Source: Candidatus Zixiibacteriota bacterium
GTDB taxonomy: Bacteria; Zixibacteria; MSB-5A5; GN15; FEB-12
DNA: 28,496 bases
Direction: 5' to 3'
NCBI GenBank assembly: GCA_041742355.1
Contig: JBGSIV010000095.1
Span: 1-28,496 of the forward strand
A program made the translations under genes and the position numbers. Shown piece after piece: positions 2,943 to 21,827 of the stretch; position 1 is the stretch's first letter; every line of letters begins with the position of its first letter. Below the pieces are notes generated by a model. The model worked only from the letters and a program-made list of their open reading frames with translations. It was not told the DNA's origin and made no database searches.

Positions 2943-4016
2943 TTATTTTTTCTTAATCCCGGTTTTCTTCTTGTCGGCCGCCCGGACGGCAGTCTTCTTC
3001 GTCGCCTTGCGCATGGGCGAGGCTTTGGGCGGCTTCTTGGCCGTCTTTTTGCCGGCCACTTTGACCAGCGTCTTCTTCGCTTTCTTCGCCGGTTTCGCCG
3101 ACGGCTTCTTGGCCGTCTTCGTCTTCGCTTCGGCCCTGGCTTTCCGCTTCGCCAGGAGTTCCTTGAGCAGCTCCGGAATTTCGGTCGGCGAGGCCGCTAC
3201 CGGAACTCCGGCGGCGTTGAGCGCCGCGACCTTACCTTCGGCAGTACCGCTGCCGCCGGAGATGATTGCTCCGGCGTGCCCCATGCGCTTTCCAGGCGGA
3301 GCCGACCGGCCCGCAATGAAGGACACGACCGGCTTGGTCATGTGCTTCTCGATGAACGCCGCAGCCTCTTCCTCATCGGAACCGCCGATCTCACCGATCA
3401 TCACCACCGCCCTAGTTGCCGGGTCGGCTTCGAATGCCGACAGGCAATCGATGAAGTTCGTGCCGATGATCTGGTCGCCGCCTATCCCAATGCAGGTGGT
3501 CTGCCCCATCCCGGCCAGAGTCAGCGCCCAGATTGCTTCATACGTCAGGGTGCCGGAGCGGGAGACCACGCCCACATGTCCCTTGCGCACGATCGTACCC
3601 GGCATGATGCCGACCTTGCTCTGGTCAACCGAAATCAAACCCGGGCAGTTCGGTCCGATCAGCCGGGCGCCGCGCGCCTTCACGTACGGGTACACCTTCA
3701 TCATGTCATTGGCCGGCACGCCCTCGGTGATACACACCACCAGCTTGATCCCGGCATCAACCGCCTCGTAAATAGCATCGATCGCGAACGACGGCGGGAC
3801 ATAGATCACAGATACATCGGCCCTGGTCGTGCGCACGGCTTCCTCTACAGTATTAAACACCGGAATGCCGGCAACTTTCGAACCGCCCTTGCCCGGCGTC
3901 ACACCGCCGACCACATTGGTTCCGTAGGCCTTCATCTGCTCGGCGTGGAACGAGCCGTCGCGGCCGGTGATCCCTTGGACGATCACCCTGGATTTGTCAT
4001 TTATGAAAATCGACAT
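2943..4016 (-). CDS. sucD: Succinyl-CoA synthetase alpha subunit with Lys/Ala-rich C-terminal extension
   Basis: [36 protein letters not shown] and phospho-His motif RMGHAGAI, followed by an extra 68-aa basic tail. Confidence 0.97.
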
Positions 4017-18194: not shown

Positions 18195-19007
18195 TCACTT
18201 GCGCATTTCGTCCAGCTTCGCCATCACCAGTTGCATGTCTTCCCAAACGTCTTTCTTGTAAACCGGGAAGCGCAGGAGCGCCGCCGGGTGGTAGGTCACC
18301 AGCAGCGGGATACCTTCGTATTCGTGCCAGACCCGGCGCAGTTTGCCGAGCGGCGTCTTTGTGTTCAGCAGCGCCTGTCCCGCAATGCGCCCAAGCGCGC
18401 AGAGCACTTTCGGCCGGATAATCCGGATCTGCTCCTGCAGGTGCGGCAGGCATTCGTCTATCTCCTCCGGGAGCGGATCGCGGTTGTTCGGCGGCCGGCA
18501 CTTGAGCACGTTCGCGATGTACACATCGCTCCGCGACAGGTGCATCGCTCCGATAATCTTATCGAGCAACTGCCCGGCCGCACCGACAAAGGGCTCCCCC
18601 TTGAGATCTTCATCGCGCCCCGGCGCCTCGCCGACAAACATCAGCTCCGCTTTCGGATTCCCCACACCATAGACGAACTTGGTGCGCGAGTCGGCAAGCG
18701 GACACTTGCGGCAGTCGCAGATTGCGGCGCGATGCTCCTCCAGCGAGGAGTACTTCGGCGCCGGTGTCTCATGCTTCGAATCCGCGAACAGGCGCGCCGG
18801 TTGCTCCGGCGCAGGCTGCCTTGTCTCGCGGGGAATCGGCGTTTCCCCGGCGCGCGAGATCAAAGTCGCCGGATCCGGCAGAGACGGCATCACCGCGGCC
18901 GGGCGCACGTTCGCTCGGTTGACGATCATCTCCCCCATCCCCAGGTCGACCTGGGAACGGATCGCGGCGCGCAGGAGGTCATGCAGTGTATTCGGTTTAT
19001 CTCTCAT
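18195..19007 (-). CDS. udg: Family 4 uracil-DNA glycosylase (4Fe-4S) with Pro-rich N-terminal linker
   Basis: CRKC, FVGEAPG, PFVGAAG, NVLKCRPPNNRDP, EC and TYHPAALL. Confidence 0.93.
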   Translation of the reverse strand: MRDKPNTLHDLLRAAIRSQVDLGMGEMIVNRANVRPAAVMPSLPDPATLISRAGETPIPRETRQPAPEQPARLFADSKHETPAPKYSSLEEHRAAICDCRKCPLADSRTKFVYGVGNPKAELMFVGEAPGRDEDLKGEPFVGAAGQLLDKIIGAMHLSRSDVYIANVLKCRPPNNRDPLPEEIDECLPHLQEQIRIIRPKVLCALGRIAGQALLNTKTPLGKLRRVWHEYEGIPLLVTYHPAALLRFPVYKKDVWEDMQLVMAKLDEMRK

Positions 19008-19085
19008 ATGGCAGTCCTGAGAGTGTCAAGGTACGACAAGGACCAAAGACAATCAAGTAACACCACTATAATTGTTCGGATCGAC

Positions 19086-19113
19086 AAGATAGAGCGTCGC
19101 CGGGCGATCTCAA
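19086..19113 (-). promoter_or_regulatory. Putative sigma70 promoter for the udg-dnaB operon
   Basis: TTGAGA-16 nt-TATCTT. A further TATAGT lies downstream in the same AT-rich spacer. Confidence 0.4.
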
Positions 19114-19139
19114 CAAAAAGATGCGGAGAGAAGGCGAAA

Positions 19140-19175
19140 GATGCGCACCCGACGAACTTCTGTCGGTTCGGCATC
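19140..19175 (-). terminator. Possible terminator hairpin after coaB
   Basis: Interrupted stem GATGC..CCGAC-loop-GTCGG..GCATC followed by TTT on the minus strand. Confidence 0.35.
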
Positions 19176-19239
19176 CGGCGATTAGCCAACCGCAGTGCGT
19201 CGGAGTCAGGGCGAGAAGATTCTGAAAGCGGGGTGGTGA

Positions 19240-19902
19240 TCACCGGTGACGGTCTGCGAAGGACTCTGCCACCAGTGCCATTAGCCGGAACGCGACATCT
19301 TGTTTGGACAGCAGGGGCCACTCTTCGGGGGAACCGCCCTGACGGACAATCGTCACACGGTTCGTTTCAGTGGAGAATCCGGAATCAGCGCCAGGGATGT
19401 TGAGCACGATGAGGTCGAGGTGCTTCTCTCGGAGCTTGCGCTGGGCGTTGGCGACAGCGTCATCTGTTTCAAGCGCGAAGCCCACGACCACCTGGTCTCG
19501 GCGTTTGCCCGGTGCGAGATCTCTGAGGATATCAACCGTCGGTTCCAAAACCAATTGCAAGCCTTCGGACCGCTTGAGCTTGCGATCGGCAACCCGGGCC
19601 GGACGGTAATCCGAAGGCGCGGCGGCCATAATCAGGCAGTCGCAGGATTCGAACCGTTCCTTGACCGCAGTATGCAATTCGGCGGTAGTTTCGATTGGTA
19701 TCACCGTCACTCCATCGGGAGGGGTGAGCGCGGTTGGTCCGCTAATAAGGGTCGTCTCAGCTCCAAGGCAGGCGGCGGCGGCGGCAAGAGCATATCCCAT
19801 TTTGCCGGAGGAGTGATTGGTGATGTAGCGGACAGGATCGATCGGCTCGCGGGTAGGGCCGGCGGTGATGACTATCTTACGGCCGTTCAGCTCTTTTTTT
19901 TT
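19240..19902 (-). CDS. coaB: CoaB (phosphopantothenate-cysteine ligase) half of coaBC, in the -1 frame relative to the CoaC half
   Basis: The frame reads KKKELNGRKIVITAGPTREPIDPVRYITNHSSGKMGYA...AAAPSDYRP...VGFALET. Conserved sequence begins well upstream of the first ATG (19800), so there is no canonical start. Confidence 0.88.
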   Translation of the reverse strand, partial: KKKELNGRKIVITAGPTREPIDPVRYITNHSSGKMGYALAAAAACLGAETTLISGPTALTPPDGVTVIPIETTAELHTAVKERFESCDCLIMAAAPSDYRPARVADRKLKRSEGLQLVLEPTVDILRDLAPGKRRDQVVVGFALETDDAVANAQRKLREKHLDLIVLNIPGADSGFSTETNRVTIVRQGGSPEEWPLLSKQDVAFRLMALVAESFADRHR

Positions 19903-20468
19903 TCAGCCGTCTTATTGGCCGGATGATCGAAGAAGCGTTCGACCGCGTCGAAAATCGCCTGCGGCTCGGCCATTCGACCGACCCCGTAATCCTCGCACGC
20001 CATCTCCCCTTCGGTCGGATCAACTACGCGGAACCCCAATCCGAGGAGCGTCTTGTAGTTGCGCTGCGTGATCGGGTTGCGCCACATCTGGGGATTCATC
20101 GCAGGGGCAATCATCACCGGCTTGGCGGTCGCACAAATAATAGTCGTAAGGAGATCGTCGGATATCCCTGAGGCCACCTTGCCGATGAAGTTCGCTGTGG
20201 TCGGGGCGATCACCAGCAGGTCCGGCCACTGGGCGAAATCAATGTGGCGCGTGGAGATGTACCGTTCCTGAGAAAACATCTCGACCGCGACCTCGCGGTT
20301 GGAGACGGTTTCCATGGTCAGCGGGGTGATAAACTGGGTAGCCGACCTCGTCATGACCACCTGCACTTCCGCCCCCGCCTTGCGTAACGCCCGCACGAGA
20401 TACGGAACCTTGTAACAGGCGATGCCGCCGGTCAAACCGACGAGGATATGCTTGTCTTTGAGAGGCAT
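19887..20468 (-). CDS. coaC: CoaC (phosphopantothenoylcysteine decarboxylase flavoprotein) half of coaBC
   Basis: GLTGGIACYK, HI, APTTANFIGK, APAMNPQMW and EMACEDYGVGRM. Ends GAA AAA AAA AAG AGC TGA in the interdomain linker. Confidence 0.92.
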   Translation of the reverse strand: MPLKDKHILVGLTGGIACYKVPYLVRALRKAGAEVQVVMTRSATQFITPLTMETVSNREVAVEMFSQERYISTRHIDFAQWPDLLVIAPTTANFIGKVASGISDDLLTTIICATAKPVMIAPAMNPQMWRNPITQRNYKTLLGLGFRVVDPTEGEMACEDYGVGRMAEPQAIFDAVERFFDHPANKTAEKKKS

Positions 20469-20471
20469 GTG

Positions 20472-20945
20472 CTAGTTGATGTGGAGCGAACGATCAAGCG
20501 GGCCGCCGCCGAGCTCGATATCGTCGATCTCGTCGAAATCAGCCAGCACGACCGATGACGCGATCAGCTTGACCTGATCCAGCGACACCGACTTCGTGCC
20601 GAACACCGCCACTCGCTCCATGATCCCCTCGAGTTGCTCGTGGTCGATCAGCGAAAGATTCACCAGCTTCAGAAGGAACCCCTGGGCTTCGCCGGACAGC
20701 TGGAACCGCTCGATAGGAGTCAGAACGCGCGTCGATGCATTCATGATCGGGATTTCGGAGAAATACTGCTCGGGAGCATTGTCAAACCGCTGCAGCAGCC
20801 AGGAATACGCCGACGAAATCTCATCCTGAGAGTAACCTTCGGCCTCAAGAACCGTCGAAAGATCTTCCGATCCGGCAAGATTCCCCTTGTTACCCTGCAT
20901 AAAATCGATGAGAAAAACGACTATTTCGAGTATCCTGTTACGCAT
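20472..20945 (-). CDS. smg: Smg/DUF494 family protein
   Basis: RILEIVVFL, L..EGY...EI..A..WL, RVL...E...L..EAQGFL..L and E.IMER. Start at ATG 20945. Confidence 0.8.
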   Translation of the reverse strand: MRNRILEIVVFLIDFMQGNKGNLAGSEDLSTVLEAEGYSQDEISSAYSWLLQRFDNAPEQYFSEIPIMNASTRVLTPIERFQLSGEAQGFLLKLVNLSLIDHEQLEGIMERVAVFGTKSVSLDQVKLIASSVVLADFDEIDDIELGGGPLDRSLHIN

Positions 20946-20982
20946 CGCGGCTACATTCCCATCACTGAAGTATTCTGCGCTG

Positions 20983-21011
20983 AAGATACAGCCCTCAACG
21001 GATATTTGCAA
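20983..21011 (-). promoter_or_regulatory. Putative sigma70 promoter for smg-coaBC
   Basis: TTGCAA-17 nt-TATCTT. Confidence 0.5.
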
Positions 21012-21112
21012 AGACTATTTCCCCGAAACCCCGTCGACCGCGGCAGAATCGGGATATGCTTTTGTCTGGCAAACTGTTGCAGAATCTCACAATTAGTGCG
21101 CTCAGAAACGTG

Positions 21113-21146
21113 CCCCAGCGCCAGCCAAAAGGCGCCGGCGCTGGGG
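21113..21146 (-). terminator. Hairpin downstream of the YceI gene (possible terminator)
   Basis: Perfect 10-bp stem CCCCAGCGCC/GGCGCTGGGG, with a weak U-tract. Confidence 0.4.
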
Positions 21147-21191
21147 AATCCGGCCAGGTCGCGGGCAAAGCTGCACCCTGTCGAGGCAGCG

Positions 21192-21827
21192 TCAGTTCAA
21201 GCGCGGCCAGTCCGGCAATGAGACATCCGCTCCGGGTTTCCCGGTATAGCCGGTGAAAACGACGTCAAGCTTGATCGTCTCGGCGACTTTGAGAAACAAG
21301 GCCTTGGGGCGCTCGATGTTAAAATCCTCAAGGTTGAGGGAAAACCGAGCGCGGATGCGTAGTCCCTCTCCTCCGTCCGCCTCCCCGAGCCGGGTCACTT
21401 CCAGGTCGGCCGTGATCTGACGGTAACCGCCGTGGATGTAGAAATTCCCCGAAGCCGTTGCAGCCACCGTTTTCCCCAGCTCAAGCTGGGCCGGAAGACC
21501 ATTGACCCGGGTCAACTCAAAGTAGGCGTAAGGATAGTCGTCTGTGTGCAGGTGGTTTTCACGAAGGTGGCGGTTGCGCAGACCGATACCGGTCTCGATA
21601 TTCCGCAGATCGACCTGCAGGCGTCCGGACACGCCGGCGGCGGTGTTTTCCGGATCAACCGAAAACCTTCCCGATATCTCGTCGGTTCGCCCCTCGATGA
21701 ACTCGAGTTTCGCCGCCGACTCGAAACGCACCGTGTCGGTTTGTCGGGCAGGATCGAGTCCGTAATCGCCGGCCAGAACAGGCACAGCCAGCGCCACGAA
21801 GATTGTGGTCAGCATGATTCGGCTCAT
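21192..21827 (-). CDS. YceI-family periplasmic lipid/polyisoprenoid-binding protein
   Basis: Signal peptide, V.F.S...LEFIEG, VDL..IETGIGLRNRHL...L.TD.YP.A.F, G.F.IHG and L.DFNI..P. Confidence 0.88.
   Translation of the reverse strand: MSRIMLTTIFVALAVPVLAGDYGLDPARQTDTVRFESAAKLEFIEGRTDEISGRFSVDPENTAAGVSGRLQVDLRNIETGIGLRNRHLRENHLHTDDYPYAYFELTRVNGLPAQLELGKTVAATASGNFYIHGGYRQITADLEVTRLGEADGGEGLRIRARFSLNLEDFNIERPKALFLKVAETIKLDVVFTGYTGKPGADVSLPDWPRLN

What the first reader, a model, noticed from the sequence alone, without database searches (positions are those of the whole stretch)
19857..19905. coaBC is split by a -1 frame change at an A10 / A_AAA_AAG slippery run in the interdomain linker: candidate programmed recoding of an essential CoA gene
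Seen: the mRNA reads GCU GAA AAA AAA AAG AGC UGA (CoaC stop), while the -1 frame reads UGA AAA AAA AAA GAG CUG AAC GGC CGU AAG AUA GUC AUC ACC GCC GGC CCU ACC (..ELNGRKIVITAGPT). The two frames are jointly open only across the A-run and a few bases after it. CoaB has no ATG/GTG/TTG before its conserved N-terminal motifs, both halves are otherwise intact, and a shift gives a ~409-aa normal-sized CoaBC. A weak hairpin (GGCCG...CGGCC with inner GAU/AUC) starts 8 nt after the heptamer. Known: A_AAA_AAG is the classic bacterial -1 ribosomal frameshift site (E. coli dnaX, IS3 family), and runs of 9 or more A cause RNA polymerase slippage. Inference: the gene may make both free CoaC and fused CoaBC, tuning the CoaB:CoaC ratio in the oligomer. 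I know of no described coaBC recoding. Alternatives are a homopolymer sequencing error, phase variation, or re-initiation at the CUG overlapping the UGA.
Basis: partly seen in the sequence, partly recalled or inferred. Interest (0 to 1): 0.8.

Follow-up and report, generated by a model that had tools for sequence, protein, structure and literature searches.

The report
Conserved A10 slip site in coaBC
A run of ten A's between the two halves of an essential coenzyme A gene is kept in most members of two Zixibacteria families and in some Bacteroidota, and most likely makes the cell produce both the two-enzyme fusion and the first enzyme alone: a known slippage trick in a gene where I found no description of it.

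Summary
The break is real and inherited. In this Zixibacteria genome the only coaBC is split at an A10 run; CoaB has no start and needs one extra A (or a -1 shift). The same linker carries A9-A11 in 107 of 127 genomes of two families (97 exactly A10), against 0 of 77 other Zixibacteria and 1 of 75 unrelated bacteria. 31 are split, 76 in frame; the in-frame ones keep a stop just downstream in the +A frame (67 of 76, against 15 of 92 without a run). The run occurs in all three codon registers, with no hairpin or Shine-Dalgarno stimulator. Bacteroidota lineages show the same design. This genome's dnaX carries an A10 at its tau/gamma site. Best reading: programmed slippage, most likely by RNA polymerase (0.6) rather than the ribosome (0.27), giving free CoaC plus fused CoaBC. 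No RNA or protein evidence was obtained, and the purpose of free CoaC is inferred. I found no paper on coaBC recoding; the scan had noted A10 sites in Zixibacteria STAS and mnmE genes before, not in coaBC.

The parts
19887..20468 (-). coaC ORF (phosphopantothenoylcysteine decarboxylase, 193 aa): the unslipped product
   Evidence: TIGR00521 1-181; only PF02441 match in the genome
19894..19903 (-). A10 slippage run in the CoaC-CoaB linker
   Evidence: A9-A11 at this place in 107 of 127 genomes of families f1 and f4
19893..19899 (-). A_AAA_AAG heptamer in the CoaC frame (possible ribosomal -1 site; this register holds in only 17 of 30 split genomes)
19887..19889 (-). TGA ending the free CoaC, two codons after the run
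19877..19879 (-). TAA in the third frame; in in-frame relatives the equivalent stop ends the +A product
   Evidence: early stop in that frame in 67 of 76 in-frame and 25 of 30 split genomes with the run
19240..19902 (-). coaB frame (phosphopantothenate-cysteine ligase, 220 codons), no canonical start; reached by +1 A or a -1 shift
   Evidence: TIGR00521 181-390; only PF04127 match in the genome; dN/dS about 0.13-0.21 among split pairs
   Evidence: 32 of 200 shuffles fold as well; 0 of 31 split relatives have z below -2

Best explanation
A programmed slippage site. RNA polymerase stutters on the A10 run and adds an A in a large share of transcripts (inferred). Here, unslipped mRNA gives the 193-aa CoaC and +A mRNA gives the 409-aa CoaBC; in most relatives the gene is in frame, so unslipped mRNA gives CoaBC and +A mRNA gives CoaC with a tail of about four residues. 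Either way the cell makes both proteins, so single-base changes beside the run can flip the arrangement, which happened repeatedly. Free CoaC most likely joins the CoaC core of the oligomer and lowers the CoaB:CoaC ratio (inferred from the M. smegmatis dodecamer, PMC7794376). Shown: DNA conservation, frames, stops, selection on both halves. Inferred: slippage itself, which machine slips, efficiency, and the role of free CoaC.
For: Run of 9 or more A in 80 of 99 f1 and 27 of 28 f4 genomes, 51 of 62 genera; exactly 10 in 97 of 107; 0 of 77 other Zixibacteria, 1 of 75 unrelated bacteria. Genomes of this order hold typically 1-6 exact A10 runs in all. Free codon choice at a fixed KKK predicts about 19 of 107. 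All three codon registers occur. Frame differences come from bases beside the run, not from run length. Early stop in the +A frame: 67 of 76 in-frame genomes with run, 2 of 15 f1 and 13 of 77 other Zixibacteria without; 35 of 40 against 9 of 47 genera; 18 of 18 against 3 of 11 in a Bacteroidota family. No 3' structure or Shine-Dalgarno signal. Single coaB and coaC in the genome. dnaX has A9-A10 near codon 385 in 18 of 20 parsed f1 genomes, with a +A-frame stop 1-4 codons on in 17 of 18. Thermus dnaX slippage adds A's and the hybrid is 9-10 bp (PMC5009743, passages); E. coli polymerase inserted but did not delete on poly(A) up to A8 (PMC6260861, section 19).
Against: No RNA reads or peptides were seen. 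All 30 regular split genes need the same direction, which by the criterion of Antonov 2013 (PMC3711429, section 10) points to ribosomal shifting. A G follows the run in 98 of 108 cases, as in A_AAA_AAG. 17 in-frame genomes of f1/f4 have lost the run, so free CoaC is dispensable in some lineages. In-frame runs could serve only to lower output. E. coli polymerase slips weakly on short poly(A); Zixibacteria polymerase is unstudied. Genomes are related, so counts overstate independence.
Confidence: 0.6

Rival explanations
1. Same two products, but the ribosome shifts -1 (tandem tRNA-Lys slip or sliding on consecutive AAA codons) on an unaltered mRNA.
For: One direction in 30 of 31 split genes, 12 of 12 split metagenome loci and 16 of 17 split STAS genes. 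Any A9+ run contains A_AAA_AAA in every frame. Ribosomes slide on consecutive AAA codons in E. coli (PMC4363877, passages). mnmE, which modifies tRNA-Lys U34 (recalled), needs the same shift in 8 of 10 loci examined.
Against: A heptamer needs 6-7 A's, yet split genes with a run all have 9-11 and never 7-8. No hairpin (0 of 31) or Shine-Dalgarno element (0 of 31). Register is free. Insertion-biased polymerase slippage also predicts one direction.
Confidence: 0.27
2. coaC and coaB are separate genes here; CoaB re-initiates at the CUG overlapping the coaC stop, and the A run is an initiation enhancer.
For: CTG overlaps the TGA in this genome and stands eight codons before the motif in 14 of 31 split genomes with a run. 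True fission with a new ATG exists in 3 genomes (G096, G097, G108).
Against: At least 8 split genomes (G001, G007, G039, G041, G073, G103, G105, G123, also G058) have no ATG, GTG, TTG or CTG between the last in-frame stop and the CoaB motif. The leucine codon there is CTG, CTA, CTC, TTA or CTT. The three genomes that gained an ATG lost the run. It does not explain the run or the +A-frame stop in 76 in-frame genomes.
Confidence: 0.05
3. DNA-level phase variation: replication slippage switches cells between A10 and A11.
For: Homopolymers are classic contingency loci (PMC3711429, passages). One genome (G055) has A11 where its congener G056 has A10 in the same context.
Against: Run length is 10 in 97 of 107 whether split or in frame, so frame does not track run length. 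The gene is single-copy and belongs to an essential pathway. Whole clades are stably split (genus g1 4 of 4; g58 3 of 3; 114 of 120 Prolixibacteraceae-like short CoaC proteins end in KK).
Confidence: 0.04
4. Homopolymer sequencing or assembly error.
For: No raw reads of an independent sample were available; the only spanning contig comes from the probable source run.
Against: Split in 31 separately assembled genomes of 18 genera, in 12 of 48 metagenome loci, and close relatives at 84-86% identity give the same 193-aa product. An error model predicts variable run lengths and both directions.
Confidence: 0.02

Closest known systems
dnaX tau/gamma: Thermus thermophilus (A9 transcriptional slippage, one ORF) and the two-ORF dnaX genes with ten A's (Antonov 2013, PMC3711429; Atkins 2016, PMC5009743)
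   Same: A9-A10 run in an interdomain linker of an essential oligomeric enzyme; stops close by in the other frames; long and short product from one gene; both in-frame and split arrangements occur.
   Different: Different gene and pathway (CoA synthesis). Here the flip recurs within genera, and some lineages went on to true fission. No experiment yet.
E. coli dnaX / IS3-type -1 ribosomal frameshift (A_AAA_AAG with upstream Shine-Dalgarno and 3' stem-loop; stimulators partly recalled)
   Same: The heptamer is in frame in this genome and the needed direction is -1.
   Different: No stimulators found; register not conserved; run fixed at 10.
Bifunctional CoaBC (Dfp), TIGR00521; M. smegmatis dodecamer 6TGV (PMC7794376)
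   Same: Both halves are intact members; the break lies in the short loop between the domains.
   Different: Described CoaBC is one continuous ORF giving 12 CoaC to 12 CoaB; here a mixture of CoaC and CoaBC is predicted.
Frameshifted magnesium-chelatase (chlD-type) genes (PMC3711429, PMC5009743)
   Same: Metabolic gene with poly-A shift site; cassettes with 9-11 A's gave 40-63% shifting in a reporter.
   Different: Other protein family; an RNA structure is suspected there.
Poly(A) frameshifts rescued by slippage in Buchnera and Blochmannia (PMC4389277, passages)
   Same: Essential genes broken at A runs and read through.
   Different: Those are accidental lesions in AT-rich genomes; this run is kept in 38-66% GC genes, also when in frame, with selected stops.

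Membership tests
Programmed transcriptional slippage (Thermus dnaX type) | Run of 9 or more A/T conserved at DNA level beyond codon needs | tested here: met
   107 of 127; about 19 expected from codon use; three registers
Programmed transcriptional slippage (Thermus dnaX type) | Nearby stops in the non-productive frames | tested here: met
   76 of 76 (+1 frame) and 67 of 76 (-1 frame) within nine codons; the +1-frame figure is also high in controls
Programmed transcriptional slippage (Thermus dnaX type) | Both shift directions among orthologs (Antonov's criterion) | tested here: inconclusive
   30 need +A, 1 (G055, A11) needs -A; insertion bias could give this pattern
Programmed transcriptional slippage (Thermus dnaX type) | mRNA with non-templated A's | not testable with these tools
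   Only contigs were on offer and no RNA run held the locus well
Classical -1 ribosomal frameshift (E. coli dnaX, IS3) | X_XXY_YYZ heptamer in the zero frame | tested here: met
   A_AAA_AAG here; A_AAA_AAG or A_AAA_AAA in all 30 regular split genes
Classical -1 ribosomal frameshift (E. coli dnaX, IS3) | 3' stimulatory structure | tested here: not met
   (median z -0.02; 0 of 31 below -2)
Classical -1 ribosomal frameshift (E. coli dnaX, IS3) | Upstream Shine-Dalgarno-like stimulator | tested here: not met
   0 of 31 split and 1 of 76 in-frame genomes pair at -8 kcal/mol or better with a generic anti-SD; the lineage's own 16S tail was not used
CoaBC (Dfp) TIGR00521 | Intact CoaC (HFCD) and CoaB domains under selection | tested here: met
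CoaBC (Dfp) TIGR00521 | One continuous reading frame | tested here: not met
Phase-variable contingency locus | Run length varies and sets the frame | tested here: not met
   Length 10 in both split and in-frame genomes; variation within a population could not be seen

The most novel reading that the evidence does not exclude
Zixibacteria use a ten-A run as a standard, portable recoding cassette on a small set of core genes (coaBC, dnaX, mnmE, a STAS regulator, a Mur-ligase-like gene). On coaBC it sets, and perhaps adjusts with nucleotide pools or tRNA-Lys modification, how many CoaB ligase domains decorate a mixed CoaC/CoaBC cage; the same solution arose or persisted in Bacteroidota and serves as a viable stepping stone from a fused gene to two genes.
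Probability: 0.3. Interest if true: 0.82.

Novelty: new member of a known kind. Interest (0 to 1): 0.66.

Why it matters
Well-supported recoding in cellular housekeeping genes of bacteria is limited to a short list. This adds an essential cofactor-synthesis gene, in two phyla, with unusually clean comparative controls: run present or absent, gene in frame or split, and descendants that became two genes. It predicts a CoaBC assembly of mixed subunits, which challenges the fixed 12:12 dodecamer picture, and it explains why databases list these genes as 'flavoprotein' or 'hypothetical' fragments, so that pathway reconstructions may miss CoA synthesis. The in-frame cases are invisible to frameshift finders.

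Tried and rejected
Hairpin and Shine-Dalgarno stimulators: rejected. Second coaB or coaC copy: not found in this 94% complete genome. Promoter/terminator scan 18900-21300: nothing above shuffles. The named-genome scan returned unrelated bacteria only and served as a control. Phylum-wide Bacteroidota pattern search: 10 of 401 genomes matched, 4 of them in coaBC, and the reversed control matched 7, so the run is not general there. A name for a cultured carrier was not obtained. No structure or complex prediction was run: a CoaC oligomer would pass by likeness to solved structures. Deep branches of the CoaBC tree are weakly supported, so 19 changes is a rough figure. Literature searches found no coaBC recoding.

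Full report
Observation. On the minus strand the coaC frame (20468-19887, 193 aa) ends E-K-K-K-S-stop across ten A's at 19903-19894; the CoaB frame begins after a stop at 19905-19903 and is open for 220 codons. The halves cover TIGR00521 positions 1-181 and 181-390 and match solved CoaC and CoaB structures. They are the only PF02441 and PF04127 matches in this 94% complete genome. The genome is 60% GC and has five A/T runs of ten or more. Database names of close homologues say Zixibacteria. A contig of the probable source run agrees letter for letter; it is not independent and no raw reads were available.

Relatives. I searched 285 genomes of the phylum; 266 have a CoaC match. I read linker DNA for 99 genomes of the window's family f1 (including this one), 28 of family f4, 77 of other families and 75 of 80 unrelated named bacteria; 12 loci were dropped because a half was missing or cut, and about 56 matches in other families were seen only as open-frame lengths. 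A run of nine or more A's lies in the linker in 80 of 99 f1 and 27 of 28 f4 genomes (51 of 62 genera), 0 of 77 others and 1 of 75 unrelated; lengths are 9 (8), 10 (97), 11 (2). Of the 107, 76 are in frame, 30 need +A/-1 and one (G055, A11) needs -A. Genomes of this order carry typically 1-6 exact A10 runs in total. If three lysines were fixed and codons free, about 19 of 107 would be all AAA; in this genome's long ORFs KKK is AAA-AAA-AAA in 2 of 99 cases. The run ends in all three codon phases, and split and in-frame genes share the same length, so the frame is set by bases beside the run.

Signs that the second product is selected. In in-frame genes the +A frame stops within nine codons in 67 of 76 with the run, 2 of 15 f1 genes and 13 of 77 other Zixibacteria without it; by genus 35 of 40 against 9 of 47 (kin are not independent). 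The stop comes largely from GGT or AAT before a lysine codon, although GGT is only 26% of glycine codons in these genes. The other frame also stops early (76 of 76), but so do most controls. In split pairs coaB shows dN/dS of about 0.13-0.21, like in-frame pairs (three pairs had saturated dS), and catalytic-site motifs of CoaC (recalled) are kept. A FastTree of 130 proteins (7 left out for short CoaB) needs 19 changes between split and in-frame and 11 between run and no run; deep support is weak, but seven genera hold both arrangements. Three split genomes without a run have a new ATG for coaB, two of them nested among split-with-run congeners. Seventeen in-frame genomes of f1/f4 lack the run, which shows that it is dispensable in some lineages.

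A second phylum. A pattern scan of metagenomes for A10 before the CoaB motif gave at least 117 matches; 48 of the 80 fetched are coaBC, 36 in frame and 12 split, all needing +A. Ten of the split ones group with named Bacteroidota; one protein is named Prolixibacteraceae, and 114 of its 120 best short homologues end in KK (that search admits only short proteins). In one Bacteroidota family, 18 of 29 parsed loci nearest to a carrier have A9-A10 in frame, all 18 with the early stop, against 3 of 11 without. Across the phylum it is rare: 4 coaBC matches in 401 genomes. The scan selects for the run, so it gives no frequency; in AT-rich genes some cases may be chance.

Mechanism. Against a classical ribosomal signal: no 3' structure here or in relatives (0 of 31), no Shine-Dalgarno element (0 of 31), free register, and a length fixed at ten where six or seven A's would do. 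For polymerase slippage: the 9-10 bp hybrid and Thermus dnaX, where slippage adds A's (PMC5009743, passages from the first 300,000 of 449,034 characters); a nine-base threshold in many genomes (PMC1088944, passages); insertion but no deletion by E. coli polymerase on poly(A) up to eight (PMC6260861, abstract and section 19); two-ORF dnaX genes with ten A's ascribed to slippage (PMC3711429, passages and section 10). For the ribosome: one direction throughout, which that same paper takes as a sign of ribosomal shifting; sliding on AAA codons (PMC4363877, passages); a G after the run in 98 of 108. This genome's dnaX has an A10 at the tau/gamma position, and so do 18 of 20 parsed f1 genomes but 0 of 3 f4; 7 of 30 loci were not parsed. 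I put polymerase slippage at 0.6 and the ribosome at 0.27; both may act. Re-initiation fails for split genomes that have no usable start; phase variation and assembly error fail on the constant length.

Function (inference). In M. smegmatis CoaBC, CoaC trimers form the core, CoaB dimers sit on the edges, and the domains are joined by a short loop (PMC7794376, passages). The run lies in that loop, so the short product is a complete CoaC. The simplest outcome is a mixed oligomer with fewer CoaB than CoaC domains. Because both arrangements are viable, the slip must be efficient, as for dnaX. A plain damping of output cannot be excluded for in-frame genes.

Wider setting. All five runs of ten or more in this genome are sense-strand A runs inside genes: coaBC, dnaX, mnmE, a STAS gene and a PP2C phosphatase. 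Of 60 other A10 sites sampled from f1 genomes, 20 are in the STAS gene, 9 in dnaX, 3 in mnmE and 3 in a Mur-ligase-like gene. I saw these before reading the scan's earlier notes, which report the STAS and mnmE sites on other DNA; none reports coaBC recoding.

Novelty. Searches found no description; term look-ups in PMC3711429 (text and one of two supplement files; the other was unreadable), PMC5009743, bioRxiv 2025.10.02.679949 (passages) and PMC4389277 (passages) found no coaBC recoding. The library lacks most subscription papers, and I did not see Sharma 2011 (recalled) or the full GeneTack cluster lists. Verdict: a real, conserved recoding site of the dnaX kind in a new and essential gene family; mechanism and purpose await RNA and protein data.

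Noticed in passing
G000 C277:3728-3738 (L439:1529-1539, minus strand): mnmE has an A11 five codons after its ATG and no start in its own frame; it needs +A/-1. Same need in 8 of 10 loci examined with a long run; 6 of 27 parsed relatives have A9+ there.
   Followed up: partly
G000 C83:3128-3137 (L438:929-938): STAS gene with A10 before a roughly 100-codon extension: 16 of 21 loci need +A, 4 are in frame, 1 needs -A; the same flip pattern as coaBC.
   Followed up: partly
G000 C216:16810-16819 (L430:2673-2682): dnaX A10 at the tau/gamma position, conserved in 18 of 20 parsed f1 genomes, absent in 3 f4 genomes.
   Followed up: yes
G000 C64:6390-6399 (L440:1191-1200); L518: PP2C phosphatase with A10 about 35 codons before its end, just ahead of a hydrophobic stretch; slippage would drop a likely membrane anchor. 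Seen in one other genome.
   Followed up: partly
L514, L537, L557: A Mur-ligase-family gene (perhaps folC; inference) is split at an A10 in three f1 genomes, needing +A.
   Followed up: no
L507: AAA ATPase and VWA frames joined across an A10 (MoxR/chelatase-like) in G042.
   Followed up: no
L239, L245, L261, L264-L266, L284, L294 (families f13, f15): A7-A8 runs at the same linker position in distant Zixibacteria, in frame; possibly the raw material of the A10.
   Followed up: no
G096 (L082), G097 (L074), G108 (L052): True fission: coaB has its own ATG and the run is gone.
   Followed up: partly
window 2943-4016, minus strand: sucD (357 aa) carries a C-terminal extension of about 65 residues beyond the family model.
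   Followed up: no
G118: 102 exact A10 runs against 1-6 in most relatives; possibly a repeated element or an assembly property.
   Followed up: no
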